64,000 bases of DNA from Candidatus Liptonbacteria bacterium (lineage in GTDB: Bacteria; Patescibacteriota; Minisyncoccia; UBA6257; 2-01-FULL-56-20), in the NCBI GenBank assembly GCA_023244895.1, contig JAHFLL010000001.1:404741-468740 (forward strand), given 5' to 3'. Of the stretch, positions 27,619 through 42,200 are shown piece after piece. Below the pieces are notes generated by a model. The model was not told the origin of the DNA and did not search any database. It saw nothing but the letters and a program-made list of their open reading frames with translations. Numbering within the stretch: the first letter of the stretch is position 1; each line of letters begins with the position of its first letter. The position numbers and the translations under genes were made by a program.

Positions 27619-27642
27619 ATTTCTAGCACACAGGGAGGCACA

Positions 27643-28020: not shown

Positions 28021-28032
28021 CGGCGCAGATTG

Positions 28033-30356: not shown

Positions 30357-30446
30357 GGAATCCCGATTCTAGCATGATCGAGACACAAAAACACGCCTCC
30401 ACGCCCTCTCGGGGAGAGTAAAACCAACTTGGGCCTATCTACCCCT

Positions 30447-30722
30447 TTATGCTCCGTGCGAGGTGCGATGGGCCAGATTCCATAGCCAACCCAAAACATA
30501 GCCCACCACATAGCCAATGATGCCGGTTACGATGATGAGTAGAATGGCATTACCGAATCCGAATGGATCAATAGAGTACTGGACCGTCATAAAATGCAGG
30601 CCCAATATCCAATCCATAAGCGGTTTGGCAATATTGACCAGCACCATAAGCGCCCAGACCGCGTGCAGAATGGCGAACAGACCTCCCAGCGTTAGACCGA
30701 TTTTGTGAGAATTTAACTTCAT
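30447..30722 (-). CDS. Small membrane protein
   Basis: 91 aa with 3 TM helices. Confidence 0.4.
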   Translation of the reverse strand: MKLNSHKIGLTLGGLFAILHAVWALMVLVNIAKPLMDWILGLHFMTVQYSIDPFGFGNAILLIIVTGIIGYVVGYVLGWLWNLAHRTSHGA

Positions 30723-30767
30723 GTGAGATTTGATGATCTTCGACCTTTTTTATAAAAAATCTAAGAG

Positions 30768-31067
30768 CTATTCCGGAAAGAAACCATATTGGAGCGAGTA
30801 TTTAACGGTCAGGGTTTTGCCTATCGAAAGGGACTCCTTTTTGCAGACAGATTTCTTTATGGGTACAAAATACTTTTTACCCTTGGATGCGAAAAGCGAG
30901 GTTCGCCAGGTTGTTCCGCCTACCGTAACCGTGACCGGAATACTTCCCCACCCGCCCGGACGCACATTGGGGACCTTACCGTCCGGAATAGAAACATAAC
31001 TCCACGCTGCCGGACCAGGAAAGACGCACAACTTGCCCGTCACTGAATATTCTCCTGGAGGGTTCAT
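30768..31067 (-). CDS. DUF1905-domain protein
   Basis: Conserved TTWRTSL...VPIKK pattern. The start is taken at internal MNPPGEY; the longer ORF-track N-terminus is Gly/Arg junk. Confidence 0.5.
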   Translation of the reverse strand: MNPPGEYSVTGKLCVFPGPAAWSYVSIPDGKVPNVRPGGWGSIPVTVTVGGTTWRTSLFASKGKKYFVPIKKSVCKKESLSIGKTLTVKYSLQYGFFPE

Positions 31068-31093
31068 CTTCTTCGTCCTTATGTTTGTGGTCG

Positions 31094-31279
31094 CTAAGCT
31101 CCAGCTAGAAAACCAAAAAGTTGATGTACCAAGAAAGCTGGCCAGAGAACGGCCTTGAGCAATCCTAGTGCCCCCATCCCGAAAGAGGTGGCGTTGCTTA
31201 TGAAATAAACCGCCCCGCCCACCACTCCCAAACCATACACCGCCCCGGACGTACCTGCGCATTGCATTTTGTTTTGCAT
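31094..31279 (-). CDS. Small glycine-zipper membrane protein
   Basis: 61 aa with a GxxxG-rich TM segment, lying downstream of a purine-rich repeat tract. Confidence 0.3.
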   Translation of the reverse strand: MQNKMQCAGTSGAVYGLGVVGGAVYFISNATSFGMGALGLLKAVLWPAFLVHQLFGFLAGA

Positions 31280-31329
31280 GTATTAATTATCCCACTCACA
31301 TAAAAAAGCGCAAATCCTTATTCGCCCAT

Positions 31330-31425
31330 TCCCTCTTCCGCTTTCTAACTTCTACTTCCAACCTCTATCTTCTATATTCTATCTACTAACTTCTACCCTC
31401 CACTATACTTGAGTATAGTACCGGG
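31330..31425. repeat. Pyrimidine-rich (CTTCTAC-type) tract plus inverted copy of the 23-bp palindromic motif (left island edge)
   Basis: On the plus strand the tract contains almost no G. It ends with CCACTATACTTGAGTATAGTACC. This is the reverse complement of the GGTACTATACTACGGTATAGCGG motif at 39842 and 41041. Confidence 0.5.
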
Positions 31426-31575
31426 GATGAGAGAGTGGGAGTTGAGAGAATGAGAGCTGGGGGGTGGGAGTTTTGGGGGGCGGGGTGGGGGTGGGGGTGG
31501 GAGGGAGAAAACGGGTTGGAAAACGCGAGGGGGTTATTTTTGAGATGGGATAAGGGTTGGTGGGGTCAGATATTT
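31426..31575 (+). repeat. G-rich, C-poor tract (GGGGGTGGG repeats), G-quadruplex-capable
   Basis: GGGGGGTGGGAGTTTTGGGGGGCGGGGTGGGGGTGGGGGTGGGAGGGAG and nearby sequence. On the minus strand, transcribed from the upstream operon, this reads as C-rich/G-poor, which is rut-site-like. Confidence 0.5.
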
Positions 31576-31648
31576 ATGAACCAGGTTTTCGGAATGCTTG
31601 TAGGCCTCTTCGTTAATAAGGCTACTTCTCGATAAAAAGAAGTTATGA

Positions 31649-32404
31649 CTACCCAGTGGTCTTTTTGAGTTCTGGAACAGTCTCTTCGAGCAACGCCTTG
31701 ATTTGATCTGAGTCAAGTGAGGACAATGCGGAATATCCACCCCTGAGATTAAGCCTGCGCATTATCAGACGTACTTTTGCCTCCTTGCTATTCGAAAATA
31801 ATGTTGGATTTCCCACTACAAATTCAAGCACGGCGAATCGTATGGTCTCATTTCTTCCTTGGGCACCAGGCAATAGATGCGTGGTGTAGTCCAACATGGA
31901 AAATACCTCTCGGGTAAGGACGTAGGGATCTTTTGCGTCCTTCGTCTTCGTGAGAGAAACAACCCACCAGAGCCTTGCGATGTCGTTGTTCATCAACGAT
32001 GCGGGACTCATCGGATCGACAAACCAATGATCGAGAATATATTTACCTCGCTTACTTTCCTTCTGGGCGGATACATCCGTCCTCTTTTTCATATAGTCGA
32101 AAAAGTCCACGTGGGTAAGGTATGTCCAAAAGCGCTCATCCGATGCGTCTTCGGGGCTCAGCGCGCTGTACGCTTCGAAAAGTCGTATCGCGGCCTCCGC
32201 AGAATCCCTACTGCCCCCGCCCGGCGGGTTGGGAAATAATATTTTGGACATGGGAACCTTCAGAGACGACTGCACCGTATCGATATCTTCGACGGAGAAA
32301 CTTTCTCCTAAATATTTTTTTACGCCTTTCCCTGTACGCAAATCATCCTTCATTCTAACGAGGGCTGCGGTCGTAAATATCGGTCTGGTGTTTTTTTCTG
32401 GCAT
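31649..32404 (-). CDS. Hypothetical protein, 4th gene of GHKL-ATPase operon
   Basis: 251 aa. Its start lies 1 nt after the upstream stop. No recognisable family (motifs RFWTYLTHV and ILDHWF). Confidence 0.6.
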   Translation of the reverse strand: MPEKNTRPIFTTAALVRMKDDLRTGKGVKKYLGESFSVEDIDTVQSSLKVPMSKILFPNPPGGGSRDSAEAAIRLFEAYSALSPEDASDERFWTYLTHVDFFDYMKKRTDVSAQKESKRGKYILDHWFVDPMSPASLMNNDIARLWWVVSLTKTKDAKDPYVLTREVFSMLDYTTHLLPGAQGRNETIRFAVLEFVVGNPTLFSNSKEAKVRLIMRRLNLRGGYSALSSLDSDQIKALLEETVPELKKTTG

Positions 32405-32405
32405 A

Positions 32406-33257
32406 TCAGGAGAATGTTATTTTATCGACGATATTGTTGAGATCGTTCAGCGAATTGGTGAGGGGGTAGTCGAATATCGCTTGCACCAGCTCGGGGATAT
32501 TTTCCACCGAGACGCCTATGCGGCGCATTCGATCCTCTTTCATCAGGTCGGTCAGTTTCTTGTGCCACTTCCTGTGGTTGTGCGTGGCACTCCTATCTTC
32601 CGACAAAAACTCGCTCATCACCCAAAGCATAGCCGGATATACGTACAGCGATATGAATACTCGTTTCAAATCTTCGCTCTTTTTAATCTTCTTCATATTT
32701 TCGTAATCCTCTTCGGGTAACTTTATGAGGATAGGGTCCGACCCCAATTCGTACTTAACATCTTTCCCTGCATGCTTGTAGAACATGAAAAATGCGCCTT
32801 CCGATCCCGGCGTCTCCCAATCTTTGGTGACCTCGAAAGAATCGCTGCCGCTGTATCCGAGTATTTCACCCTTATGAACCGTGAAAGTTTGCCCATCGAA
32901 GAAATCTGTGGTGTAGGCATTTTTGTATCGCGGTATATCCTGTTTTGCGATAATCAAACACGTCGCCACAACCGTATCTCTGAGATATTTCGAATCTATC
33001 CTTATTTGCCCCGAACCGTCTCCAGGAAGCTCGAAGCCCATTCGATACATCGTCGAGGAACAGGATACGTCGACAAAGAAAACCGCCTTGCCGTCAGTTA
33101 TTAATTTCTCCATAGCTTCGTTATGGAGGACCTGAGAAACGGTCAAGATCGTCTCTTTGGCGATAACGAGTCCAATATGGGTCTCGAACCTACCGACGAT
33201 TTCGCCTCCGTCCTTGCGTAGTATTGGATGCGGCAACGATACAATGTCGAGTTTCAT
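32406..33257 (-). CDS. Hypothetical protein, 3rd gene of operon (possible PD-(D/E)xK-like motif GD...IDSK)
   Basis: 283 aa. ATGA overlap with the GHKL gene. The weak PD-x9-DxK pattern is speculative. Confidence 0.6.
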   Translation of the reverse strand: MKLDIVSLPHPILRKDGGEIVGRFETHIGLVIAKETILTVSQVLHNEAMEKLITDGKAVFFVDVSCSSTMYRMGFELPGDGSGQIRIDSKYLRDTVVATCLIIAKQDIPRYKNAYTTDFFDGQTFTVHKGEILGYSGSDSFEVTKDWETPGSEGAFFMFYKHAGKDVKYELGSDPILIKLPEEDYENMKKIKKSEDLKRVFISLYVYPAMLWVMSEFLSEDRSATHNHRKWHKKLTDLMKEDRMRRIGVSVENIPELVQAIFDYPLTNSLNDLNNIVDKITFS

Positions 33258-35155
33258 CGAGATTTTTTGATTAGTTCAAAAGCGTTGAGCTTCAGGGAAT
33301 ATTTTCCGGATTCCGAAAATTTTACCTTCAGTCTCCTTGCGCCCATTTTATTCAAAACAAGATCACGTATCTCGTTTGCATTGAAGCTGGGCTGATTTTT
33401 AACCGTCTTATCCGCTATGATCGTTTGCAAAACTAACCTCTCGGAAGAATCGTCGCCACCCGCAACTATTTGAACGATGTCTATTTTCTTTCCTGGCTCT
33501 CCCTTGATCTGAATCTGATGAGTCGGATTACTTTCGGAGTCGGAACCCGCAAATGAAAGGAATGCGATACCCGCTAGCGGTCGCGCGTCGTTATTCTTTG
33601 TTTTCGATTTTTTCTTTCCCTTGTTTCTCTTGTCGGCAACTGGAATATATACATCCCCACCTTCCTTCTCGGCGCGTTCTTTGATGCTCAGGATCTTCTT
33701 TTTTACTTTCAGATCCAAATTCCGCATTTCCTCGACGGTCACCTCGTCGCCGTATTCTTTTTGGGTGTATTCTTTTTCTCCGCCCTGCGCTCCAGAACCT
33801 TCGTCGGTATCCATTGCAATAAAATCCTCCAACCCCTCGATAGAAAGATATCGTTCTTCCCGAGAGGTGCTCAGTTTTTGCAACTCCCTTTTGATAAAAT
33901 TCTCCATTTCCAGATACGCCAACTTGGCCTTTTCGCGATTCTCTTGCGTTTTGGCGTTCTCCCATTTCCATTCGTTGTGTTCCTGGTTCTCCATCTCCCT
34001 GAGGAGCGCATTACCATTTTCGTTGTCGCAAATAAAAACCGCGGCATACCGATTCATCGAATTCTTCTTGATGCAGTCCACGACCATGCCGGGTTTCCGG
34101 ATCAAAGCCACCCGGTTGGGATACCCGTCAGCCAGTAAAAGATGCAAGCGAACCTTGCCGAGGTGATCCAATTCGTCCTCTATCGGAGCATCCTTACGAT
34201 AGGCGTAGTAGAGAGGTAGCGGGTTCGGCACATCCGTGTTGCCCCACTCGAAAGGAGCTTTGCTGAAATATTTATGGAGGAGGTGTTCGACGGTATTTTG
34301 ATTGATGGTTTCGTTTTCCTGCACCTTAACGGTAAGCTTGCCCGTAATGATGGGCAGCCAGAAATAGCGGAGGATCGATTGAACCAATTCTGAGGCCCAA
34401 TCGTCCTCACCGATGAAATCGGGGATTAAAAAGTCCGTGCCAGGTCTTATTCGCTTAAACACGCTCGGAAAAAGCTTGGTGAAATTAGTTGGGATGAGAT
34501 CGCGGTCGTGAATCGGCTTTTGATCACCCACGCCGTAGGTACCGTTATTTTGTTTTCGCTTCCCGTCTTCTTCGAACGTGGTAACGATGGTTTTCCCAGC
34601 GAAGGTATAAGAGTTGGCCTCGTCGATACTGGAAATGAAAAGGGAAAGAAAGCCGGACGAGACATAGTAAGCGCCTTTTCCCAGACCGAACGATCCACCG
34701 CTCCCAGACTGTTTATTGCTGAAACCGACGGATTCCGCAAACCGGAACCAGTTCTCTTTTGTCATGCCGACAGTATTGAAATCACTGATCCTGAGAACTT
34801 TGACCGTGGTATTTTTCGAGATTTTACTCGCTCCTTTCTCGAATTCGACTGCCGTATCAATCGCTCCTTTCTCCCTCAAATAAACGGCGCACGCCGAAAG
34901 TATCTTCGCGAGCCGCTCGGCTCCAGGCACGCTTTTGGCGGGCATCGTAACAACGCTGAATTCAGCTTCAACGGGCTTCCCTGAACTCGAATCGTGCGCG
35001 TCCATTATATTTTGGAGGGCCTCTCGGGCGATATAGTAGGAAGGATTACCGCGAAATTCAACCGTGGGCCCAGCATTCGGGCCATCGGCCATACCCCCCC
35101 CGAGATCCCCGAAAATCCATTCAGGCTTATTTGAATCTGTTGAAGTCTTGGGCAT
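33254..35155 (-). CDS. GHKL-superfamily ATPase (Hsp90/MORC/MutL-like Bergerat fold), 2nd gene of operon
   Basis: 633 aa with N-box EALQNIMDA, G1 box DFNTVGMTKE (Hsp90-like DxGxGMTK) and G2 GSGGSFGLGKG. It also has a Lys-rich low-complexity linker and a ~100-aa C-terminal domain. Confidence 0.7.
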   Translation of the reverse strand: MPKTSTDSNKPEWIFGDLGGGMADGPNAGPTVEFRGNPSYYIAREALQNIMDAHDSSSGKPVEAEFSVVTMPAKSVPGAERLAKILSACAVYLREKGAIDTAVEFEKGASKISKNTTVKVLRISDFNTVGMTKENWFRFAESVGFSNKQSGSGGSFGLGKGAYYVSSGFLSLFISSIDEANSYTFAGKTIVTTFEEDGKRKQNNGTYGVGDQKPIHDRDLIPTNFTKLFPSVFKRIRPGTDFLIPDFIGEDDWASELVQSILRYFWLPIITGKLTVKVQENETINQNTVEHLLHKYFSKAPFEWGNTDVPNPLPLYYAYRKDAPIEDELDHLGKVRLHLLLADGYPNRVALIRKPGMVVDCIKKNSMNRYAAVFICDNENGNALLREMENQEHNEWKWENAKTQENREKAKLAYLEMENFIKRELQKLSTSREERYLSIEGLEDFIAMDTDEGSGAQGGEKEYTQKEYGDEVTVEEMRNLDLKVKKKILSIKERAEKEGGDVYIPVADKRNKGKKKSKTKNNDARPLAGIAFLSFAGSDSESNPTHQIQIKGEPGKKIDIVQIVAGGDDSSERLVLQTIIADKTVKNQPSFNANEIRDLVLNKMGARRLKVKFSESGKYSLKLNAFELIKKSR

Positions 35156-35157
35156 TT

Positions 35158-35388
35158 TTATAGTTCAAACTCCTTCTCTTGTTTTTCTTCACCCCGAAAA
35201 CGAGCTTCCGCCTTCGCAAGCGCGTCTTTCATCGCCCCGAAAATCTTCCTTAATTGGTCTGGGGTGTAGTCGTAAAGCCCACGATTATGGAGATTGGAAA
35301 CGATCCGGATATCGTCGAGGACTTTCCTGACCCTTTTCTCCGCCAGCCGCTTGAACCGTTCCGCCTTTTGTTCGTTATTTTTTGACAT
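35158..35388 (-). CDS. Small helical basic protein, 1st gene of operon (possible DNA-binding/regulator)
   Basis: 76 aa. Its stop lies 2 nt before the GHKL ATG. A TTGACA-17-TATACT promoter sits upstream. Confidence 0.45.
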   Translation of the reverse strand: MSKNNEQKAERFKRLAEKRVRKVLDDIRIVSNLHNRGLYDYTPDQLRKIFGAMKDALAKAEARFRGEEKQEKEFEL

Positions 35389-35412
35389 AGTATTTTAGGA
35401 AGTATTTCCTGA

Positions 35413-35441
35413 AGTATATTCTATAGTATTTTCTATGTCAA
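35413..35441 (-). promoter_or_regulatory. Sigma70-like promoter for the 4-gene operon (TTGACA-17-TATACT on minus strand)
   Basis: Read directly from the sequence. It lies just downstream of a small GC hairpin that terminates vsr. Confidence 0.4.
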
Positions 35442-35446
35442 GTCTC

Positions 35447-35869
35447 TTATCTTCGGGCCTCTTCGGGGCCTAAACACCTCTTCATTTTGGTCTCTACGCG
35501 ATCCGGATGCTTCTTTATGACCGATCCCCAGAATCGGAGCACCTTATAACCGCGTTTGCGTAGTTCCCTGATCTGACGGCTGTCCCTTTTTATATTCGCA
35601 GCAATTTTTGATTTCCAAAAATCGGGAATTCGTGCGCCCCATTTTTTAAGCCCTCTTCCATGCCAAAAATCGCCATCCGCGAAGATGGCGATTTTATTTT
35701 TCACAAAGACAATGTCGGGTTTTCCCGGGAGACTGGCTACGTTTTTTCTGTAGCGTTCAATTTTCCAAAAAGGCCTGACTATTCTGCCCAATAGTTTTTC
35801 GATGTCGGTATTTTTTGTACCGACTTTCTTCATCAATACGCTACGCGCTTCTTTGGTTAATTTATCCAT
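35447..35869 (-). CDS. vsr: Very-short-patch-repair endonuclease
   Basis: Motif FADGDFWHGR (compare the FVDGCFWHGH Vsr signature) with conserved Asp/His. The start is probably internal MDKLT. Confidence 0.75.
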   Translation of the reverse strand: MDKLTKEARSVLMKKVGTKNTDIEKLLGRIVRPFWKIERYRKNVASLPGKPDIVFVKNKIAIFADGDFWHGRGLKKWGARIPDFWKSKIAANIKRDSRQIRELRKRGYKVLRFWGSVIKKHPDRVETKMKRCLGPEEARR

Positions 35870-36389
35870 GCTCCTCGACGCGTGGATAAATAATGCGTGC
35901 CTCTGCGACAAGAGCTTTAGTAACTGTTATATTCCATCCCCGCATAGTCTTGTGCCACTTCTTCAGTCTGAAAAATTGTTCCCATGTGATCTCTAAAATT
36001 TTCTTTGGCTGCAGATTCTGATCTATTAAAACAATAACGACGTACTCGAATTTCTTTTCCGAGGGATGCTCGATTTCGGGATCACCGAGTCCGTAAAAAA
36101 CACTCGTCAAACTGTTCGGCTCGGTAATTGTCTTTATGCTGTACCTGTCTCCCTTCCGACTCAATGCATCAACATTCTGGGTTCCTTCCGGAGCTGCTTG
36201 GAGCTTAGGCAACCCGGGAATTTTGTTATATGTTTCGATGGCCAAAAACTCGCCACGTTCCCCGGTGATGTTCTTGGTCCGTATTAACCCTCGCTTTTTC
36301 AAAAGAGTAATCGCAAACGCGTAGACGCTCCACACGACGTCATCACTGGCAGCCTCTATCTTCTCAAATATCTCAAATTCCTTTCCCAT
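35862..36389 (-). CDS. Hypothetical protein between dcm and vsr (R-M associated)
   Basis: 175 aa, translationally coupled to its neighbours. No recognised family. Confidence 0.45.
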   Translation of the reverse strand: MGKEFEIFEKIEAASDDVVWSVYAFAITLLKKRGLIRTKNITGERGEFLAIETYNKIPGLPKLQAAPEGTQNVDALSRKGDRYSIKTITEPNSLTSVFYGLGDPEIEHPSEKKFEYVVIVLIDQNLQPKKILEITWEQFFRLKKWHKTMRGWNITVTKALVAEARIIYPRVEEHG

Positions 36390-36397
36390 GAGTAAAT

Positions 36398-37384
36398 CTA
36401 CAGAAATTTTATTATTTCACGGCCAATTTCCCGTATCACGTTTATCGCCACGCTATTTCCGAGCTGCTTGAGCATCTGCGTATGTGTAACCGTTGTTGGA
36501 AAATCGAAATCCGCCGGAAATCCCATCATCGTTTTCATCTCACCCACAGTCAAGACATGTTTTTCCCCTCCAACAATATATGTATCCCAACTCCTCTTGT
36601 CCACAAACCATTCTCCGTTTCTTTTTTTGTATACTGGCGACCCGCGCCCACCAACTCGAATGGTTCTCCCTATCTTGTTCGGCCATTTCTTATCTTTAAA
36701 GAATTTACATAAAGTCGTGCCTCCTGGACTAGTTGGCTTTGGGAATTTAAATTCCTTGGCGCCAGGCGCTCCTTTTTTAAAGGCCACTAAATAAAATCTG
36801 GGTCGAGCGGTCGGCAGACCGAAATCGCTGGCATTCAGAAAGTTCCAGGAATCGTCTCGCTCCTCGTTTACGTAATATCCAGCCCTGTCCAGTTTTTCCA
36901 AGATAATTTGGAACGTATGCTTATTGTCGTGATTAACAATGTTCCTCACGTTCTCCAGAAAAATAACCTTCGGCTGCTTGGCCAAAATTATTCTCTCTAT
37001 GTCACCGAATAGGGTGCCTCTGTCATCATCAAATCCCCGTTTTTGTCCGATACGACTGAACGGTTGGCATGGGAAACCAGCACACAATACATCGAATTTT
37101 GGTATAACCCTTTTTATATTTTTATCCCAAATTGTTTTTGATTGCCCAGTATCAGTAAGGGTTATGTCCTTTATGCTTTTCCAAAAATAGGGTTCGCGCT
37201 TCTTGCTTTTAAACAATTCGGGGTTGGTCTTACGAAAATTATGCTCGTATGTCTTCCGTGCATTCTCGTCGAATTCATTTACGAACACGCATTCACCGCC
37301 GAGCTCCTGTAGCGCGAGATGGAATCCACCGATTCCAGCGAAAAGGTCAATAAATGTAAACTTTGGCCTCCTTTTCTTTTTCAT
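36398..37384 (-). CDS. dcm: DNA (cytosine-5)-methyltransferase
   Basis: Motif I FIDLFAGIGG, motif IV GFPCQPFS, ENV, and the C-terminal target-recognition and motif IX/X pattern. Confidence 0.85.
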   Translation of the reverse strand: MKKKRRPKFTFIDLFAGIGGFHLALQELGGECVFVNEFDENARKTYEHNFRKTNPELFKSKKREPYFWKSIKDITLTDTGQSKTIWDKNIKRVIPKFDVLCAGFPCQPFSRIGQKRGFDDDRGTLFGDIERIILAKQPKVIFLENVRNIVNHDNKHTFQIILEKLDRAGYYVNEERDDSWNFLNASDFGLPTARPRFYLVAFKKGAPGAKEFKFPKPTSPGGTTLCKFFKDKKWPNKIGRTIRVGGRGSPVYKKRNGEWFVDKRSWDTYIVGGEKHVLTVGEMKTMMGFPADFDFPTTVTHTQMLKQLGNSVAINVIREIGREIIKFL

Positions 37385-37464
37385 TATTTATACAATCAGA
37401 ATAGCATAATTTCCCTCCATTTTCACAGATTTATATACCCCAGCGATGCGCCAGAGCGAATGGT

Positions 37465-38475
37465 TTATCTTGCTTTATGGGATAGCTCAAATAACTTGTC
37501 CTTTATGCTTTCAAACTGGGCTCTAGTAATTGGATATGGTGTACCCCCGCCATGATTGAAAGAGTTTGAAAATGGCTCGCTGAATTCTCCCTGTTTCCCA
37601 AATTTCAGCTCAATATCCTTCTTGGACTTTTTCTTTATCTCAAAATCAACAAAGTGAGGCCAGTGCCGGTTATTTATTTCCAGGGTCCTTCTCTGATCTT
37701 CAAAAAATGTCCCCCTGTGGTTGTCGAGCGCCATATAATACGGTTCGACAATACTGCAAATGTAGTATCTGTAAATAGTTATCTCCGTCTTAGGGTTTTT
37801 GGGCATAGCCATACTATTCCCGGCCTTACCGAATATAAAAAGTATCTTGTCGCCTTTCTGCATATCCAGAATATGCGGCAATGCTTTTGCATGCTGTCGG
37901 AATGCCCAGAACGGCTTAGAGGGCTTACTCTTGAGCATCCTATCAAAGTTCTTCACCGCAGGGCCATTGGCTCCTCCTTTTAAGAATACGACCCAATATT
38001 GACTCTTGCTTGAAAGATTCTTGCTCTCGGCCTGATAAATTAGAGACTCCCGCGAGAGCCGAGAAATATTTTCCGCGACCCAATCGGCAAAATCATCATG
38101 GTCAATGGCTACAACGTCTATCCCCTCATATGTCTTTAAATCAGTCTCCCCAAGGACAACAACAAAACCATCTTTTTCTTTTATATATCTTTTCTGATTG
38201 TCTTTCTTAAAATCGGTTAAATGCCATTTGACCTCTACCGGTATGCCGTTCTGCCGTTTTTTAAAAAAGATCTCCAGGTCGGCTCGATAACGAGCTTCTG
38301 TCTTGGACCCTTCGGGTACAATAAGATTTATCTGATCTTTTTGGAGTCTTTCCGGAAGCAATTTTCTCCTCTGGCCAGAATCACCAAAATAATATCTTTC
38401 GAAAAGATAACGGTGGATCAGCTTTTCGTTAAAGGCATTTCGGTTGATCTTTTTGAAGATATCCAGTCCGCTCAT
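37465..38475 (-). CDS. Putative type II restriction endonuclease (N-terminal PD-(D/E)xK: RADLEIF...PVEVKW)
   Basis: 336 aa, located immediately upstream of dcm on the same strand. It has a D-x12-EVK motif. This is an inference. Confidence 0.5.
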   Translation of the reverse strand: MSGLDIFKKINRNAFNEKLIHRYLFERYYFGDSGQRRKLLPERLQKDQINLIVPEGSKTEARYRADLEIFFKKRQNGIPVEVKWHLTDFKKDNQKRYIKEKDGFVVVLGETDLKTYEGIDVVAIDHDDFADWVAENISRLSRESLIYQAESKNLSSKSQYWVVFLKGGANGPAVKNFDRMLKSKPSKPFWAFRQHAKALPHILDMQKGDKILFIFGKAGNSMAMPKNPKTEITIYRYYICSIVEPYYMALDNHRGTFFEDQRRTLEINNRHWPHFVDFEIKKKSKKDIELKFGKQGEFSEPFSNSFNHGGGTPYPITRAQFESIKDKLFELSHKAR

Positions 38476-38610
38476 TAAAATCTCTTATGTTTTTTATGAC
38501 CTACCCCTTCTTCCAATCCCTGATGGTGAATCCGCCGGGGGGAAGTTTTGGGCTCTTATTTACCTTAAATAATATGCCCCTCTTTTGGCTTTAGCAAGAA
38601 TAAAATTCAA

Positions 38611-38694
38611 GGCAGTAAGTAGATAGTAGCAAGTAGTAGGTAGAAGGCGGAGTATATAAAAAAGAACCAGCCCCGGACGCGCGTCGCGCCGGGG
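38611..38694. repeat. Composite repeat copy 1: C-depleted GTAG/TAGAAG tract + 48-bp terminator module (GCGGAGTATATAA..CCCCGGACGCGCGTCGCGCCGGGG)
   Basis: 47 of 48 bp match 39974..40021. On the minus strand this is a hairpin plus T-run terminating the PNP gene. Confidence 0.55.
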
Positions 38695-38726
38695 CCGGAA
38701 TAGAATCCGTCTGACTTCTCCGCCAC

Positions 38727-39614
38727 TTACGCCGCTTCGCTCCGGCGGTAGAGCTCGAAGAACCTGAGGAAGATCTTGGCGACACGCCGGCGGACCGGCG
38801 GGCTCTTCAAGACCCTCACGACCTCCTCGTGATTGGTCGCGTTTGTGCCATCCTTCTTGGTTGTATTGGACACGATGGAAACGGCGAGCGTGCGCAGACC
38901 GCGATTGGTCGCGACGATCACTTCGGGCGCGGTAGACATGCCCATCGCGTCCCCGCCCAGAATCCGAATCGCACGGACCTCCGCGGGGGTCTCGTAGGTC
39001 CGTCCGGTCTGGACGAAGAGCACGCCCCTGTGGACACGCCGAGACTCTCGCACGATTGCGGCCGCGCGGTGGAACATACTGCGCAGCTTCAGGTCGTACG
39101 TGCCGACCTTGGGGTACATGGGCTGGAAGTACCAGTTGCTCCCAAAGTCCAAATGCGGTCCGAGAAGCGGGTTGGGCATCGCGAGAGCGATGTGGTCCGT
39201 GACCACCATCAGATCTCCGACCTTGTAGGACATGTTCGCCGCGCCGACTGCGTTGGTCGACATGTAGATCTGGACACCGAGCTCCGCCATCACCTGGACG
39301 GCGAGGGTAACCCACCACATCGCCCGCGGGTCGGGAGCGGCGTTGTAGTAGTGCTCCCGGCCGGACAAGGCGAAAACGGGCACGCCAGCGATGGTCCCGT
39401 AGATCAGCTCGCCCTTGTGCCCCGGAGCGCTCACGCCCGGGAAACCGGGAATCAGCCGATACGGGATCACAACCTCCTTCACCATCTGCTCGGCGAGGTC
39501 GTCCATCCCCGAGCCTAGCGTGAGCGAAATCTTGGGCATGGGGCCATTCACCCTGCTCCGGATGTAGGCTGCCGCCGCCCGAACCTTGGCCACGTAGACT
39601 TTCGGCGAGATCAT
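38727..39614 (-). CDS. Purine nucleoside phosphorylase (PunA/MTAP family), GC-rich foreign cassette
   Basis: 295 aa with GSGMDDLAE, SGREHYY and MGMSTAPEVIVA...NHEEV. A strong SD (GGGAGG) lies upstream. The gene is markedly GC-richer than the genome. Confidence 0.8.
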   Translation of the reverse strand: MISPKVYVAKVRAAAAYIRSRVNGPMPKISLTLGSGMDDLAEQMVKEVVIPYRLIPGFPGVSAPGHKGELIYGTIAGVPVFALSGREHYYNAAPDPRAMWWVTLAVQVMAELGVQIYMSTNAVGAANMSYKVGDLMVVTDHIALAMPNPLLGPHLDFGSNWYFQPMYPKVGTYDLKLRSMFHRAAAIVRESRRVHRGVLFVQTGRTYETPAEVRAIRILGGDAMGMSTAPEVIVATNRGLRTLAVSIVSNTTKKDGTNATNHEEVVRVLKSPPVRRRVAKIFLRFFELYRRSEAA

Positions 39615-39837
39615 CTCTCAGTCCCTCCCTGTTATGCCTCACGGAATAATATCAAAACCGTTTCGGATAGCTCCTCGCGGCTCATCACATCATTATGCAG
39701 TCAGGTATAAAAATCAATGTAGTAAGCGAAAGTAGAGGCTAGTAGCTAGAAGGTAGTAGGTAGCGAGCAAAATGAACCTAAACGGGAAAACACTGCTCAT
39801 CTCTCACTAACCCTATCTCCCCCAACTCACACCCCCG

Positions 39838-40021
39838 TGGTGGGTACTATACTACGGTATAGCGGAGGATAGTAGGTAGAATATATAAGGTAGAAGTTGG
39901 AAGATGGGAAGTGGTAGGTAAAAAGCGAGGGGTAGAAGTTAGAAGATAGAAGTTGGAAGGTAGAAAGTAGAATGCGGAGTATATAAGAAAGAACCAGCCC
40001 CGGACGCGCGTCGCGCCGGGG
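39838..40021. repeat. Composite repeat copy 2: 23-bp palindromic motif + C-depleted purine tract + 48-bp terminator module
   Basis: GGTACTATACTACGGTATAGCGG, then about 100 nt with almost no C (GGTAGAAGTTAGAAGATAGAAG...), then the terminator module for the lipoprotein gene. Confidence 0.55.
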
Positions 40022-40041
40022 CGGTCAATCTCATCATCCTA

Positions 40042-40746
40042 CTAGTCATAGAAGCGCGTCACCGGGGAGTAGTGCTCCCGGATGAAGGCGTTGAAGCAGG
40101 GACCTTCCTTCTGGCCACAGGCAAGCCAGCCTCTATACATAGTGGCACCGACCGGGTCCAGGTTGCGGCCCGCCCTCACTAGAGCAGAGACGGTATAGCG
40201 GCAGGTCCTGTCCCATGCGGTGACCTCGGAGGCGATCAGCGCCTCCTTACCGTCCACGTTGTCACAGCCACTCGCAAGATGCTCCAGCTCGTGGAGAAGA
40301 CCGATCACGATCGAGACTTCGAAGGTCTGCGGCGTGACCTTTCCGCTTCGATAGAACTGTAGCTGGGCCGGTACGAAGATCCGGAGCACGGGATTGCCAC
40401 CCCGAGCATCGCAACCGGCCAAGACGTCTCTGGAGCGGTTATTGAAGGACGTGCTGGCCTCGATGGCGAACACCTTGCCGTAGCGCTCAGCGCTCCGCCT
40501 GGAGAGCTCCAGATAACGGTTGTTGATGTCCGAAACCGAATACCTGGCCCGGAGCACCTCCTCCATCACGGTCCGGTTGAAGTGGGAGTCCCAGAACGCG
40601 TGGAGCTCCTCGTCCGAGAACTTGCGCTCCACCCTCTCCGCCACGGTGGGGGTGGGTTCATTCTTCTTGTCTATGGGGCAACCAAGAACCAGAAGAATGG
40701 TCGTCAGAAACAGGATGCGCGCCGTTCTTCCGCGTCGCATGGACAC
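40042..40746 (-). CDS. Lipoprotein with HExxH zinc-metallopeptidase motif, GC-rich cassette
   Basis: Signal peptide with lipobox LVLGC, HELEH motif, and an SD (AGGGGAGG) before a GTG/ATG start. Confidence 0.55.
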   Translation of the reverse strand: MSMRRGRTARILFLTTILLVLGCPIDKKNEPTPTVAERVERKFSDEELHAFWDSHFNRTVMEEVLRARYSVSDINNRYLELSRRSAERYGKVFAIEASTSFNNRSRDVLAGCDARGGNPVLRIFVPAQLQFYRSGKVTPQTFEVSIVIGLLHELEHLASGCDNVDGKEALIASEVTAWDRTCRYTVSALVRAGRNLDPVGATMYRGWLACGQKEGPCFNAFIREHYSPVTRFYD

Positions 40747-40895
40747 AGGTTGCCTCCCCTATTGTTTTGCCGTCATTGCGGCGATGGTAAACGAACCGAC
40801 CATATAATACAATTTTTCATGTAAAACACAAGATAACCCTCTTTCATTAATTATCTAGCCCCTCACGTCCCCAGCTTGACTAGGACATAGCACCA

Positions 40896-41064
40896 GGTAA
40901 CAAGTAGTGGCTAGTAATTAGTATTGAATAACGGTGAGTTAGAAGACGGTGGTTGGTAGTTAGAACGTGGAAAGTGGAACGTAGAACTACTGCCACTACT
41001 ACAATCATAATTCCGCTTACTCATCCATCAACCCCCACAGTGGGCACTATACTACGGTATAGTT
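40896..41064. repeat. Third copy of purine-rich tract + 23-bp palindromic motif (GTGGGCACTATACTACGGTATAG)
   Basis: Same orientation as the copy at 39842, and upstream of the plus-strand gene 41153. Confidence 0.45.
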
Positions 41065-41152
41065 ATCCACAGATAGGCATTGACGCACAGACTGGACGGC
41101 TATAGTTTTAAATCAGCCCCCGAAACGTTAACCTCTTTCAAGGAGCAGTGTC

Positions 41153-41392
41153 ATGGGTAGCAACAACACGCCACGGTACGAGGAAGACACTCGGCAGGTC
41201 TCCTCGGCCACCAGTGCGGCGGGCATGGCAGCGGCAGTCATGATTGCCGGGCCGTTCGCAGCGCTGTTCGTCGATCCGAACGACAAGTGGGAGCACACCA
41301 TCACCGATACCCAGACTGGTAACCAGGTTGTGGGTACCGGGAGCACCCCGCAAGAAGCTCGCGACGAAGCCCTGGGCAACATGCGTCGCTAA
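41153..41392 (+). CDS. Small hypothetical protein (79 aa), GC-rich
   Basis: AAGGAG sits 7 nt upstream of the ATG. No recognised family. Confidence 0.45.
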   Translation: MGSNNTPRYEEDTRQVSSATSAAGMAAAVMIAGPFAALFVDPNDKWEHTITDTQTGNQVVGTGSTPQEARDEALGNMRR

Positions 41393-41564
41393 TCGTTTAG
41401 CGAACATCCAGCCCGGATATAAAAAGAGGTACAGACACAAAAGTAAGGCAAGAAAGGGGCAAAATAGCCCGCCGCAATTAGCGGAAAATCCACAAGGCGC
41501 ATATTACGCGCGAGCCCCGGCTATTGCTAACGCACCCGGGGTTTTTGAATATTAAAATCAACAC

Positions 41565-41612
41565 AAAAAGCGAGACCCCGGACGCAGCACGATGCTGGCC
41601 GGGGCCCGAACT
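41565..41612 (-). terminator. GC hairpin terminator related to the CCCCGG..CCGGGG module
   Basis: Minus-strand GGGCCCCGGCCAGCA..TGCTGCGTCCGGGG followed by a T-rich run, located after the zinc-ribbon gene. Confidence 0.35.
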
Positions 41613-41631
41613 CTTCTCCACGCACAGAACG

Positions 41632-41895
41632 CTATTGCGGAGGCCAGATGGACTCGTCCTCGCAGACGGGACACTCGTAGCGATCTCCTCGCCTGGCCGA
41701 CTCTGGCAACTGCTTGTCGCAATTGGGGCAGACCGGTACCAAAACAGTGTCCTCGTTGGCGGGCAGTCGGCAACATTGCGGGCAGTAGCCCGCAACCTTG
41801 CCGTTTCGATCTTCTACCCTCTCCAGCAACCCTCCGCACGCCTTGTGCGCGGACCACCACTCTGTCGGCTTCAAGGCGATCGCCAGAACGCTCAT
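41632..41895 (-). CDS. Zinc-ribbon mini-protein (CPQCC...CPNC...CPVC)
   Basis: 87 aa with a strong SD (GGGAGGAG) and three CxxC pairs. Confidence 0.5.
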   Translation of the reverse strand: MSVLAIALKPTEWWSAHKACGGLLERVEDRNGKVAGYCPQCCRLPANEDTVLVPVCPNCDKQLPESARRGDRYECPVCEDESIWPPQ

Positions 41896-41908
41896 CCGAT
41901 TCTCCTCC

Positions 41909-42118
41909 CTAGCACCTGGTGCAGGATGTCACGGTGCAGTAGGTCTTGGATTCCGGTCCGCCGCTTCTGCGAGCGCTGTCGTTGCAGCCCTCGCAGACCA
42001 GGGCGTTTCCACCCCGGACCAGACCCGCGCCATTGCAGTGCGAGCACTTCTCGCCCTTCTTCCCGCCGCTCCCTCGGCAGAAGGAGCAATTCATGACCGG
42101 GACGTCTCCGAGCGCCAT
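41909..42118 (-). CDS. DnaJ-type zinc-finger mini-protein (CxxCxGxG repeats)
   Basis: Start taken at MALGDV with the SD GGGGGA. Motifs CSFCRGSGG, CSHCNGAG and CEGCN. Confidence 0.45.
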   Translation of the reverse strand: MALGDVPVMNCSFCRGSGGKKGEKCSHCNGAGLVRGGNALVCEGCNDSARRSGGPESKTYCTVTSCTRC

Positions 42119-42200
42119 GATGTCCCCCAATCCAGACACGGGATGTGTCTGCTGGAGATAGATTTTGATACAACCAGAAACAAAGTCAACGCCCAAGCGG

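What the first reader, a model, noticed from the sequence alone, without database searches (positions are those of the whole stretch)
31330..42200. About 11 kb mosaic accessory island with alternating native-GC and foreign-GC segments
The island lies between the DUF1905 gene (end 31067) and the ABC-F gene (42201). It contains the following.
- The GHKL operon.
- A Dcm + REase + Vsr cluster.
- Three GC-rich cassettes: PNP 38727-39614, HExxH lipoprotein 40042-40746, and small Zn-finger genes 41153-42118.
- Repeated terminator modules, a 23-bp palindromic motif in three copies (the leftmost inverted), and C- or G-depleted tracts.
The GC-rich cassettes carry GGAGG-type Shine-Dalgarno sequences that look stronger than those of the flanking native genes (not compared systematically). 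This fits recent acquisition from a higher-GC donor.
Basis: seen in the sequence. Interest (0 to 1): 0.75.

Follow-up and report, generated by a model that had tools for sequence, protein, structure and literature searches.

The report
Swappable gene island in a CPR bacterium
An 11-kb stretch of an ultra-small groundwater bacterium's chromosome is a hypervariable island: one half carries anti-phage defence genes, the other a row of GC-rich, self-contained single-gene cassettes that turn up reshuffled in related genomes, an ordinary kind of island apart from that cassette row.

Summary
The window is a housekeeping chromosome segment of a Patescibacteria (Paceibacteria-type) genome. In between, the sister carries different genes and shares only PNP.

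Defence half (31.6-38.5 kb, native-like GC):
- the PADLOC candidate system PDC-M33 (A/B/C), preceded by a 76-aa gene;
- Vsr;
- a BisI-family methyl-dependent nuclease, not a cognate REase;
- an HhaI-like C5 methylase;
- a nuclease-EVE fusion.

Cassette half (38.5-42.2 kb): four transcription units.
- GC is 0.60-0.63 and GC3 0.74-0.85, against 0.47 and 0.52 for core genes.
- Three open with a strong GGAGG-type ribosome-binding site, which core genes mostly lack.
- Each ends in a CCCCGG...CCGGGG terminator hairpin found nowhere else in the window.

Thirteen such cassette genes across three related genomes share one codon usage, occur in different orders, and insert singly at other intergenic sites.

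A foreign origin is supported. "Recent" is not shown: cassette dS is 0.38-0.44, and no donor was found. There is no integrase, tRNA or phage gene. This is a new member of a known kind, with an unusual cassette array.

The parts
30768..31067 (-). DUF1905 gene, conserved left flank (not part of the island)
   Evidence: Pfam PF08922 1e-20. 78% nt identity to L168 2635-2938.
31094..31279 (-). Conserved 61-aa gene, the last core gene before the island
   Evidence: 87% nt identity to L168 1722-1922. Homology with the sister genome ends at window 31295. dN/dS 0.10.
31296..42195 (.). Hypervariable island, bounded by the loss of homology with the sister genome
   Evidence: L082 homology ends at 42196 and L168 homology at 31295. 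Only PNP (38723-39717) and short intergenic modules are shared inside.
31341..31418 (+). Module A: G-free CTTCTAC-type tract followed by the palindrome CTATACTTGAGTATAG (31403-31418). Inverted relative to modules B and C.
   Evidence: 85.5% identity to L082 8948-9022.
31420..31570 (+). G-rich, nearly C-free tract with runs of GGGG/GGGGG. No gene lies downstream on this strand.
   Evidence: (GC skew +0.41).
31649..32404 (-). PDC-M33C (DUF6339)
   Evidence: Pfam PF19866 2.9e-45. PADLOC PDLC04586 8.4e-36.
32406..33257 (-). PDC-M33B
   Evidence: PADLOC PDLC04583 1.2e-44, full length.
33254..35155 (-). PDC-M33A, with GHKL-like motifs (REALQNIMDA, DFNTVGM, GGSFGLGKG)
   Evidence: PADLOC PDLC04582 9.9e-91, aa 12-625. 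Motifs read from the translation. No Pfam hit. An alternative start at 35092 was called in the ENA assembly.
35158..35388 (-). 76-aa helical protein, first gene of the PDC-M33 operon. A near-consensus promoter lies at 35441-35413.
   Evidence: ORF. Called in an independent assembly. Promoter TTGACA-17-TATACT, 11 of 12 matches.
35447..35869 (-). Vsr very-short-patch repair endonuclease
   Evidence: Pfam PF03852 3.4e-21. The 140-aa gene call in L164 puts the start at 35869.
35862..36389 (-). BisI-family modification-dependent (type IIM) endonuclease
   Evidence: PADLOC mREase_II PDLC03205 1.1e-60. The 3-sequence profile hits Eco15I (8q5m) at 7.6e-7 and NhoI (8q5n) at 0.007. Both are BisI-family enzymes per PMC11347163.
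36398..37384 (-). C5 cytosine DNA methyltransferase, HhaI-like. Motifs FxGxG, PCQ, ENV and GNSV are present.
   Evidence: Pfam PF00145 2e-73. Best PDB match M.HhaI, 4.8e-50.
37465..38475 (-). PD-(D/E)XK-like nuclease fused to a C-terminal EVE domain; predicted type IV modification-dependent nuclease
   Evidence: Family alignment A4 has invariant D66 and E81. AF2 pLDDT 93. Foldseek finds EVE folds 2hd9, 2eve, THYN1-5mC DNA 5j3e and TgMcrB-N 6p0f at prob 1.0; the N-terminal part weakly matches Bax1 nuclease.
38502..38611 (-). Conserved junction and promoter element between the cassette array and the defence genes
   Evidence: 92% identity to L166 3650-3756, where it precedes RadC. 38502-38539 is 89% identical to L082 12879-12916, where it precedes T5orf172. 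Promoter-like TTGCTA-17-TATTAT at 38597-38569.
38609..38695 (-). Terminator repeat copy 1 (hairpin 38670-38695 plus U-run), 3' of PNP
   Evidence: Fold -32.2 kcal/mol.
38723..39717 (-). PNP cassette: promoter, GGAGG Shine-Dalgarno and purine-nucleoside phosphorylase CDS (38727-39614)
   Evidence: NCBIfam NF006054 5e-71. GC3 0.845. SD dG -11.4. 88% nt identity to L082 9898-10892. dN/dS 0.13.
39718..39984 (-). Spacer module B: TAG-rich C-free tracts, palindrome CTATACTACGGTATAG (39847-39862) and a G-free tract
39936..40022 (-). Terminator repeat copy 2 (hairpin 39997-40022), 3' of the HExxH gene
   Evidence: Fold -32.5 kcal/mol, z -4.3. Logan contigs break here.
39985..40833 (-). HExxH cassette: a 234-aa predicted lipoprotein (CDS 40042-40746) with the lipobox LVLGC and the motif LLHELEHL
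   Evidence: Translation. Only 2 homologues among 5.8 billion proteins. 84% nt identity to L166 2374-3217. GC3 0.78, SD -11.0. dN/dS 0.24.
40834..41100 (-). Spacer module C with the palindrome at 41047-41062
41153..41392 (+). 79-aa cassette on the + strand, with AAGGAG SD and its own terminator hairpin at 41515-41541
   Evidence: (called as a gene).
41576..41604 (-). Type-2 terminator hairpin, 3' of the zinc-ribbon gene
   Evidence: 84% identity to L082 9825-9878, which lies after a different gene.
41632..41895 (-). 87-aa zinc-ribbon protein with three CxxC pairs
   Evidence: Weak Pfam zinc-ribbon hits. GC3 0.74, SD -10.8.
41909..42196 (-). 95-aa CxxCxGxG-repeat protein, abutting the ABC-F stop codon
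   Evidence: Translation. Called in L167. GC 0.60.
42201..43688 (-). ABC-F ATPase, conserved right flank (not part of the island)
   Evidence: Pfam. 96.6% aa identity to L082.

Best explanation
Window 31296-42195 is a flexible (hypervariable) genomic island at a fixed chromosomal hotspot of a groundwater Patescibacteria lineage. The hotspot lies between the conserved 61-aa/DUF1905 genes and the ABC-F gene. The island has two compartments of different origin.

(1) A defence compartment (31.6-38.5 kb).
- It has native-like GC and, like the core genome, almost no Shine-Dalgarno sites.
- It holds the candidate system PDC-M33 (76-aa gene, then A, B, C, driven by a near-consensus promoter).
- It also holds a 5-methylcytosine-centred cluster. 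Inferred roles: the HhaI-like C5 methylase marks self DNA. Vsr repairs the T:G mismatches that 5mC deamination causes. The BisI-family nuclease and the nuclease-EVE fusion cut foreign DNA that carries other or denser cytosine modification.

(2) An array of four self-contained transcription units (38.5-42.2 kb).
- Three have an AT-rich promoter region and a strong GGAGG-type ribosome-binding site. The fourth (95-aa plus 87-aa genes) abuts the ABC-F stop codon with no promoter region of its own. All four have a 60-63% GC coding sequence and a CCCCGG...CCGGGG intrinsic terminator.
- The units belong to a pool of such cassettes that circulates among related Paceibacteria. All have one common, non-native codon usage.
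- Cassettes are gained, lost and reordered one at a time. The most likely route (inferred) is DNA uptake followed by recombination at the short repeated terminator and junction modules, or at microhomologies. No dedicated integrase is involved.

What is shown: the boundaries, the variability, the compositional and translational foreignness of the cassettes, cassette sharing and shuffling, and the protein family assignments.

What is inferred: the recombination route, the donor, the activity and specificity of the enzymes, and any defence function of PDC-M33.
For: Boundaries and variability.
- L082 and L168 (sister genome) lose homology at 42196 and 31295 and carry other genes there.
- A second assembly, L164, is 100.000% identical over 14,927 nt spanning the island, so the structure is not peculiar to one assembly.

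Foreignness of the cassettes.
- GC, GC3 and tetranucleotide z-scores.
- Shine-Dalgarno dG of -11 against a core mean of -2.1.
- RSCU correlation is 0.81-0.91 among cassettes of four sequences, but 0.04-0.41 between cassettes and core genes.

Self-contained units.
- Four hairpins, exclusive to this region, all fold as terminators in the sense of the upstream gene.
- The same pattern holds for cassette genes in L082, L166 and L168.

Shuffling.
- PNP is shared with L082 and HExxH with L166. The 62-aa, 95-aa' and 191-aa genes are shared between L082 and L166 in different orders.
- PNP has a type-1 hairpin here and a type-2 hairpin in L082.
- Two single-cassette insertions in L168 sit at sites that are empty in the window. 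They are flanked by 9-nt and 17-19-nt direct repeats.
- The PNP unit in the window is itself bracketed by the 87-nt direct repeat.

Cassette age and constraint.
- Cassette dS is 0.38-0.44 against 0.5-1.8 for core genes, with dN/dS 0.13-0.24.

Defence annotations.

No mobility genes: there is no integrase, transposase or tRNA in the 64 kb.
Against: - No empty site or excision product was seen. Only two or three related genomes could be found, and the three Logan contigs and the ENA contig identical to the window (L001, L165, L167, L164) may come from the same or related samples.
- GTDB and JGI relatives (77% ABC-F identity or less) have lost synteny, so the age and breadth of the hotspot are unknown.
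- The donor is unidentified, and the high GC has persisted over dS of about 0.4. The cassettes may therefore be long-term residents of a clade-specific pool rather than recent imports.
- The defence compartment's foreignness rests only on its absence from the sister genome and on modest codon and tetranucleotide deviation.
- PDC-M33 is an unpublished, untested candidate system (PMC11811056).
- The palindrome and tract modules remain functionally unexplained.
Confidence: 0.78

Rival explanations
1. Integron-like, site-specific cassette system. The hairpin repeats at the 3' end of each cassette, and/or the CTATAC-N4-GTATAG palindromes, are recombination sites used by a recombinase encoded elsewhere. 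The array is a dedicated gene-capture platform.
For: - Single-gene, ORFan-rich cassettes, each followed by an imperfect GC-rich palindrome. Cassette order is shuffled between genomes.
- Hairpin families are exchanged between cassettes. Homology breakpoints fall at hairpin ends.
- A conserved 110-nt junction lies at the end of the array in three genomes.
Against: - No integrase or any other recombinase in 64 kb.
- Three of the four units carry their own promoter region and strong ribosome-binding site, unlike typical integron cassettes.
- The hairpins are canonical terminators with U-runs. By inspection they lack the RYYYAAC/GTTRRRY cores.
- Direct repeats flanking the single insertions in L168 have different lengths and sequences, 9 nt against 17-19 nt. 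This argues against one defined site.
- There is no Rfam match.
Confidence: 0.12
2. One mobile element (prophage remnant, ICE, transposon or integrated plasmid) acquired as a single 11-kb block.
For: Defence genes and cargo genes cluster together. Homologues of PDC-M33A and the BisI-like gene occur on plasmids of other phyla.
Against: - No integrase, phage, conjugation or replication gene, no tRNA and no terminal repeats.
- The two halves differ sharply in GC, codon usage and Shine-Dalgarno use.
- The sister genome shares only the PNP cassette.
- No match in IMG/VR, phage or plasmid collections.
Confidence: 0.04
3. Assembly or binning chimera: high-GC fragments of another organism were stitched into a 47% GC contig.
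For: Abrupt GC steps. Short-read contigs break at the repeats.
Against: - An independent MEGAHIT-type contig of 60.7 kb is identical across all junctions.
- Logan contigs join ABC-F to the GC-rich genes.
- The contig breaks are explained by a 33-nt exact repeat.
- Sister genomes from other projects show the same interleaving.
- GC changes coincide with gene boundaries, and the spacers between GC-rich genes are native-like.
Confidence: 0.02
4. The GC-rich genes are native genes whose composition reflects selection (for example on expression level), not transfer.
For: PNP is a plausible core salvage function for a CPR bacterium. Its nearest relatives are CPR/DPANN proteins. Both cassettes tested (PNP, HExxH) are under purifying selection.
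Against: - Absent or differently placed in the sister genome.
- The HExxH gene is an ORFan.
- GC3 is up to 5.6 sd above core.
- Ribosome-binding sites and terminator style differ from core genes.
- Cassette dS is below core dS.
Confidence: 0.04

Closest known systems
Flexible genomic islands, defence islands and integration hotspots between conserved core genes
   Same: A fixed chromosomal position bounded by conserved genes. Gene content is replaced between close relatives. Several defence systems are clustered and composition is atypical. Genomic islands, including one carrying an RM system in a Paceibacteria MAG, have been reported in groundwater Patescibacteria (PMC12455944).
   Different: No integrase, tRNA or flanking repeats. 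Half of the island is an ordered array of single-gene units with uniform foreign composition.
Phage 'morons': independent transcription units spread by horizontal transfer (PMC3594210)
   Same: Three of the four units have a predicted promoter region and all four a factor-independent terminator. Their base composition differs from that of their neighbours. They are inserted between other genes and their cargo is heterogeneous.
   Different: They sit in a bacterial chromosome with no phage genes nearby, and no relatives exist in IMG/VR or phage records. They form a tandem array and share terminator modules.
Integron gene-cassette arrays
   Same: Small, mostly same-strand, ORFan-rich cassettes, each followed by an imperfect palindrome. 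Cassettes are shuffled between genomes.
   Different: No IntI, attI or Pc. Three of the four units have their own promoter region and SD. The palindromes are plain terminators without attC core sites.
[quoted passage not shown]
   Same: Size of about 175 aa. The profile matches Eco15I and NhoI over nearly the full length. It lies next to a C5 methylase gene, as BisI does in B. subtilis T30.
   Different: It comes from a CPR genome. The neighbouring methylase has all the catalytic motifs checked, whereas the one next to BisI is inactive. Vsr is also linked. Activity and specificity are untested.
EVE/PUA-domain fusion nucleases (for example EVE-HNH VcaM4I, PMC7897488; McrB N-terminal domain of T. 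gammatolerans)
   Same: A C-terminal EVE fold of the kind that reads 5mC/5hmC, fused to a nuclease module and located in a defence cluster.
   Different: The nuclease part is PD-(D/E)XK-like, not HNH or McrBC. Sequence profiles do not reach Pfam EVE (E 0.032), so only the predicted fold shows it.
PADLOC candidate system PDC-M33
   Same: All three components match full length, in the order A-B-C, with E 1e-91, 1e-45 and 8e-36.
   Different: An extra 76-aa gene lies upstream. The system is an unpublished candidate with no tested function (PMC11811056; no paper mentions it).

Membership tests
Genomic island / hotspot | Present in one genome and absent or replaced in close relatives at the same position, between conserved genes | tested here: met
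   L082 and L168 against the window: homology ends at 42196 and 31295, with different genes inside.
Genomic island / hotspot | Atypical composition relative to the host genome | tested here: met
   Met strongly for 38.5-42.2 kb (GC3 z 3.8-5.6, tetranucleotide z 3.6-8.5). Met only weakly for 31.3-38.5 kb (tetranucleotide z 1.5-3.7, RSCU r 0.38-0.52 with core)..
Genomic island / hotspot | Mobility signatures: integrase, tRNA target, flanking direct repeats | tested here: not met
   No integrase or transposase in 64 kb. No tRNA. No terminal direct repeats.
Defence island | Two or more defence systems clustered | tested here: met
   PDC-M33 A/B/C, BisI-family nuclease, C5 MTase with Vsr, and a nuclease-EVE fusion within 7 kb.
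Phage moron | Own promoter and own factor-independent terminator | tested here: met
   All four hairpins fold as terminators with U-runs. AT-rich upstream regions with -35/-10-like hexamers were read in the sequence for three units; the 95/87-aa unit has none. These are predictions only, with no transcript data.
Phage moron | Nucleotide composition different from neighbouring genes | tested here: met
Phage moron | Located within a phage or prophage genome | tested here: not met
   No phage genes in the window. No hits in IMG/VR or phage records.
Integron | IntI tyrosine recombinase adjacent to the array | tested here: not met
   No Phage_integrase or other recombinase hit among the proteins of the 64-kb window that were scanned. 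A gene elsewhere in the genome cannot be excluded.
Integron | attC sites with R''/L''-L'/R' structure and a GTTRRRY core at cassette boundaries | tested here: not met
   The hairpins are perfect GC stems with U-tails and no RYYYAAC/GTTRRRY cores, judged by inspection. No attC covariance model was available.
Integron | Mostly promoterless cassettes expressed from Pc | tested here: not met
   Three of the four units have their own AT-rich upstream region and strong SD.
PADLOC PDC-M33 | Three co-oriented genes matching models M33A, M33B and M33C | tested here: met
   E 9.9e-91, 1.2e-44 and 8.4e-36, all near full length and contiguous.
PADLOC PDC-M33 | Anti-phage activity | not testable with these tools
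   Candidate only (PMC11811056). No literature found.
GHKL ATPase (claim for PDC-M33A) | Bergerat-fold motifs N box, G1 and G2 | tested here: inconclusive
   Motif-like strings are present in the translation. There is no Pfam HATPase hit at E<=10 and no PDB sequence hit. No structure was predicted.
BisI family (type IIM) | Sequence homology to characterised members over the whole protein | tested here: met
   Profile A5 against Eco15I at 7.6e-7 (aa 8-160 against 4-146) and NhoI at 0.007. PADLOC mREase_II at 1.1e-60.
BisI family (type IIM) | Cleavage of Gm5CNGC-type methylated DNA | not testable with these tools
   Needs enzyme assays.
EVE-domain modification-dependent nuclease | EVE/PUA fold | tested here: met
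   AF2 pLDDT 93. Foldseek prob 1.0 to 2hd9, 2eve, 5j3e and 6p0f, with TM on target 0.42-0.65. Pfam EVE is only E 0.032.
EVE-domain modification-dependent nuclease | Fused nuclease domain with catalytic residues | tested here: inconclusive
   Invariant D66 and E81 lie in a D...ExK-like pattern. Only a weak fold match to Bax1 nuclease was found, prob 0.66-0.91.

The most novel reading that the evidence does not exclude
The GC-rich units are members of an undescribed, integrase-independent or trans-mobilised cassette pool specific to a Paceibacteria clade.
- Each unit is a portable expression module: promoter, strong SD, ORF and CCCCGG-stem terminator.
- The shared terminator and junction repeats double as the recombination substrates that insert, delete and reorder cassettes, both in an array next to ABC-F and at scattered intergenic sites.
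- The units' uniform non-native codon usage and SD-led translation would then be the signature of a single donor compartment. This could be the unknown host organism or an unknown extrachromosomal element of these episymbionts.
Probability: 0.18. Interest if true: 0.8.

Novelty: new member of a known kind. Interest (0 to 1): 0.52.

Why it matters
CPR/Patescibacteria have tiny genomes, and how they acquire new functions is poorly understood.
- This locus shows a concrete hotspot where defence genes and ready-to-express foreign cassettes, including a nucleoside-salvage PNP, are exchanged between close relatives.
- The cassettes carry translation signals that the core genome largely lacks. This bears on how an SD-poor organism expresses imported genes.
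- If one donor compartment supplies all cassettes, their composition (about 62% GC, GGAGG-led, CCCCGG-stem terminators) could be used as a fingerprint to look for the host or mobile element associated with this lineage.
- The defence half adds a CPR example of a 5mC-centred module: methylase, Vsr and two modification-dependent nucleases.
- It also places the untested PDC-M33 candidate in a clear defence-island context.

Tried and rejected
- Synteny or empty-site test with 80 GTDB and 80 JGI loci anchored on ABC-F. The best identity is 77%, and even flanking genes are not syntenic, so the test is uninformative.
- Exact-protein look-up of PDC-M33A failed because of a different start call.
- Rfam scan of 30.5-42.6 kb at E<=1 found nothing. 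tRNA scan of the window found none.
- IMG/VR scans with the hairpin and with the HExxH, PNP and 87-aa proteins found no relatives.
- blastn of the cassette region against phage and plasmid records found no match.
- Donor search through PNP homologue contexts (L172 at 0.53 GC, L174 at 0.38 GC) produced no plausible donor.
- Single-sequence AlphaFold of the 336-aa protein gave pLDDT 34 and was unusable. It was replaced by an alignment-based model.
- PDB sequence and profile searches, and per-member Pfam scans, for the 336-aa family found nothing. Only the fold search worked.
- PDB and Pfam searches for PDC-M33A found nothing meaningful.
- The generic promoter scan is not enriched over shuffles: 14 found against 12.4 expected. 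Promoter assignments therefore rest on position only.
- The palindrome and tract modules were aligned but no function could be assigned. Readings as riboswitch, attC, dif or MITE were considered and have no support.
- A simple prophage or ICE was considered and rejected (see rivals).

Full report
**Context.** The 64-kb window is a housekeeping chromosome segment. It encodes SecA, BipA, TGT, QueA, MetK, trigger factor, SOD, LexA, MgsA and ABC-F, with a mean GC of about 0.47. The closest named relatives of its ABC-F protein are Patescibacteria/Paceibacteria MAGs at 77% identity or less. No tRNA gene was found in the window. No integrase, transposase or recombinase was found among the proteins scanned.

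**Check of the observation.**
- Sliding GC shows three blocks of 0.56-0.66 GC at 38.7-39.6, 40.05-40.75 and 41.1-42.2 kb. They are separated by spacers of 0.43-0.48 GC. The region 31.3-38.5 kb is 0.37-0.54.
- The five cassette genes have GC 0.60-0.63 and GC3 0.74-0.85. The 67 core genes have GC 0.471+-0.040 and GC3 0.515+-0.059, with a maximum of 0.644. Tetranucleotide distance to the flanks gives z 3.6-8.5 for the 1-kb windows starting 38.5-41.5 kb and 1.5-3.7 for 31-38.5 kb.
- The Shine-Dalgarno claim was tested for every gene. The core mean duplex energy with the anti-SD is -2.1 kcal/mol, and 2 of 67 genes reach -9 or lower. The cassette genes give -11.4, -11.0, -8.3, -10.8 and -7.3.
- Only 5 of 67 core genes reach -10.5 even if any start in the first 40 codons is allowed.
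- The native-GC island genes resemble the core in lacking SD sites, except PDC-M33A.
- The repeats are real:
  - an identical 26-nt hairpin at 38670-38695 and 39997-40022 within an 87-nt direct repeat;
  - four CCCCGG...CCGGGG hairpins, all between 38671 and 41604, where 0.21 are expected;
  - three CTATAC-N4-GTATAG palindromes, where 0.03 are expected, the leftmost inverted relative to its flanks;
  - C-free and G-free tracts.
- Similar TAG-rich tracts also occur in native intergenic regions at 4816-4869, 48360-48411 and 51528-51574. The tracts are therefore a feature of this genome, not of the imported DNA.

**Gene content, defence half.** All genes are on the minus strand.
- PDC-M33C (DUF6339), PDC-M33B and PDC-M33A match the three PADLOC models over their full length, with E 8e-36, 1e-44 and 1e-90. 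They are preceded by a 76-aa gene and an 11-of-12 consensus promoter.
- PDC-x systems are unpublished PADLOC candidates (PMC11811056). No paper in the library mentions PDC-M33 or DUF6339.
- The 'GHKL' label for PDC-M33A rests on motif-like strings only. Pfam and PDB sequence searches found nothing.
- Vsr follows.
It matches PADLOC mREase_II at 1e-60. A three-sequence profile matches Eco15I at 7.6e-7 and NhoI at 0.007. Both are BisI-family enzymes (PMC11347163).
- BisI itself sits next to a C5 methylase gene (PMC4926085).
- The methylase here is HhaI-like, at 5e-50. Its catalytic motifs are present.
- The unannotated 336-aa gene belongs to a family of about 90 cluster representatives with invariant D66 and E81.
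- An alignment-based AlphaFold model of it has pLDDT 93. Its C-terminal domain is an EVE fold, with Foldseek prob 1.0 to 2hd9, 2eve, THYN1 bound to 5mC DNA and the T. gammatolerans McrB N-domain. Its N-terminal part weakly resembles the Bax1 nuclease.
- Together these genes form a 5-methylcytosine-centred defence cluster.

**Gene content, cassette half.**
- PNP matches NF006054 at 5e-71.
- The 234-aa protein has a lipobox and an HExxH motif. It has only two homologues among 5.8 billion proteins.
- A 79-aa gene lies on the plus strand.
- An 87-aa zinc-ribbon gene and a 95-aa CxxCxGxG-repeat gene abut the ABC-F stop codon.
- Each unit ends in a hairpin that folds at -25 to -32 kcal/mol and is followed by a U-run in the sense of the gene.

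**Related genomes.**
- L164 is a 60.7-kb contig from another assembly. It is 100.000% identical to the window over 14,927 nt, from 28727 to 43653.
- Logan contigs of the same strain join ABC-F to the GC-rich genes. They break exactly at the 33-nt exact repeat in the terminator modules.
- L082/L083 and L168 represent a sister genome from the Rifle ANAN16-1 sample. ABC-F is 96.6% aa identical, the UvrD-like helicase 91% and the ABC transporter 92%. Nucleotide homology with the window ends at 42196 on the right and 31295 on the left.
- Between those points the sister carries, after ABC-F: a 269-aa gene, a 62-aa gene, DUF2103, a fatty-acid desaturase, a 95-aa gene, DUF3160, Memo, a 191-aa gene, PNP, 296-aa and 146-aa genes, T5orf172, RadC-methylase and a second methylase.
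- On the DUF1905 side it carries an HTH_20 regulator, a NUDIX gene and a GC-rich partial gene.
- Only PNP is shared with the window (88% nt, 90% aa).
- The sister island is also mosaic: 0.60-0.62 GC blocks, native blocks and a 0.31-0.38 GC methylase block.
- L166 is a third, 4.5-kb contig. It carries 191-aa', 435-aa, 62-aa, HExxH (84% nt to the window), 95-aa' and then RadC. This is another order of partly the same cassettes.

**What the comparison shows.**
2. Across the window, L082, L166 and L168 there are 13 kinds of GC-rich cassette gene.
   - All of those that could be scored have strong SD sites (-9 to -14).
   - All have GC-rich terminator hairpins (-20 to -30). Neighbouring native or AT-rich genes mostly lack both.
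   - Cassette codon usage correlates at r 0.81-0.91 between genomes but 0.04-0.41 with core genes. The two halves of the core set correlate at 0.86.
3. Hairpin modules are separable from the coding sequences. PNP is followed by the type-1 hairpin here and by a type-2 hairpin in L082. The type-1 hairpin follows DUF2103 in L082 and HExxH in L166.
4. A 110-nt promoter-like element (38502-38611) closes the array in the window and in L166, and part of it does so in L082. It precedes a different AT-rich defence gene in each genome.
5. Cassettes also insert singly.
   - L168 has a 175-aa cassette between the 61-aa gene and DUF1905, flanked by TTCTGGCAG.
   - It has a 268-aa cassette next to CmpB, flanked by the 17-19-nt repeat ATAAAAGCGAAGCGGTYGG.
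   - Both sites are empty in the window.
6. The PNP unit in the window is itself bracketed by the 87-nt direct repeat. A single recombination between those repeats would delete it.

**Age of the cassettes.**
- Synonymous divergence between window and sister is 0.79 for ABC-F, 1.20 for the ABC transporter and 1.43 for the UvrD-like helicase.
- It is 0.44 for PNP and 0.38 for HExxH (the latter against L166). dN/dS is 0.13 and 0.24.
- The cassette copies therefore share a more recent ancestor than the host genomes. They have been exchanged or drawn from a common pool, and they are under purifying selection.
- They are far from identical, and GC3 is 0.85 in both PNP copies. 'Recent acquisition' is thus not demonstrated.

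**Donor.** The donor is unknown.
- PNP's nearest relatives outside the clade are CPR and DPANN proteins at 55% identity or less. Two of their contexts gave no lead.
- Nothing matches in the IMG/VR, phage or plasmid collections.

**Most likely mechanism.**
- The locus is a flexible genomic island at a conserved hotspot.
- The defence compartment looks like DNA from SD-poor donors of similar GC, plausibly other Patescibacteria. This is consistent with reports that most transfers into Patescibacteria come from other Patescibacteria and that RM systems ride on their genomic islands (PMC12455944).
- The cassette compartment is an array of moron-like units, meaning independent transcription units spread by horizontal transfer (PMC3594210), although it is not in a phage.
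- Gain, loss and reordering are best explained by recombination at the short shared terminator and junction modules, or at microhomologies, after DNA uptake. This step is inferred, not shown.

**Rivals.**
- An integron-like, site-specific system is the main rival. It would need a recombinase encoded elsewhere. Against it: three of the four units have their own promoter region and SD, the hairpins are plain terminators, and the flanking repeats vary in length.
- En-bloc acquisition of one mobile element, an assembly chimera, and native genes with odd composition are each contradicted by several results (see the rival explanations).

**Unexplained.** The module made of a CT-rich tract, the CTATAC-N4-GTATAG palindrome and a G-rich tract has four copies: three in the window and one in L082. 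A palindromic operator for a dimeric regulator is a reasonable guess, by analogy with the TTCGCAC-N4-GTGCGAA palindromes around the HTH_20 gene in L168. Nothing tests this.

**Verdict.** Three corrections apply: the nuclease identities, the unproven recency, and the absence of a simple empty site. As a kind of feature it is a new member of a known class. The shuffled, uniformly foreign, self-expressing cassette array in a CPR genome is the unusual part.

Noticed in passing
L168:1999-2526 and L168:6386-7192 (empty sites at window 31067-31094 and about 28020-28068): The sister genome has two further single GC-rich cassettes (175 aa, GC 0.59; 268 aa, GC 0.60) inserted at intergenic sites that are empty in the window. 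The first is flanked by TTCTGGCAG, which occurs three times within 870 nt. The second is flanked by a 17-19-nt direct repeat, ATAAAAGCGAAGCGGTYGG.
   Followed up: partly
L168:650-1650 and 2948-2977: Five or so copies of a 35-nt motif containing the palindrome TTCGCAC-N4-GTGCGAA lie in the intergenic regions around an HTH_20 (ArsR-like) gene and a NUDIX gene in the sister genome's version of the island. They look like operators of that regulator.
   Followed up: no
window 4816-4869, 48360-48411, 51528-51574 (also 28298-28340): TAG-rich, C-free tracts with 7-nt periodicity (GTAGAAG, TTAGAAG, GTAGTAG) on the sense strand, just upstream of native genes. The same kind of tract fills the cassette spacers. 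Function unknown.
   Followed up: partly
window 31420-31570 (+): A 150-nt G-rich, almost C-free tract with many GGGG/GGGGG runs (G-quadruplex potential). It faces the 3' end of the PDC-M33 operon and has no gene downstream.
   Followed up: no
whole window (67 core genes): Core genes of this genome almost entirely lack Shine-Dalgarno sequences: mean anti-SD duplex dG -2.1 kcal/mol, and only 2 of 67 at -9 or lower. The 16S 3' end is not in the window, so the anti-SD sequence could not be checked.
   Followed up: partly
window 27544-28020 (+): A 158-aa gene with no Pfam match has the highest GC3 (0.64) of the 'core' set. It is shared with the sister genome, where it was called as 124 aa (L168 7395-7769) and sits next to the inserted 268-aa cassette. 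It may be an older, partly ameliorated cassette.
   Followed up: no
L168:524-585 and L168:7249-7310: A 62-nt repeat at 90% identity follows the terminators of two different GC-rich cassette genes in the sister genome. This is another shared 3' module, distinct from the CCCCGG hairpins.
   Followed up: no
L174 (Logan SRR25018341, 6.3 kb): In an unrelated low-GC (0.38) CPR-like contig, the PNP homologue (52% identity) and the gene after it are also GC-elevated (0.46-0.47), and a NUDIX gene follows them. PNP may be a recurrent transferred gene in these lineages.
   Followed up: no
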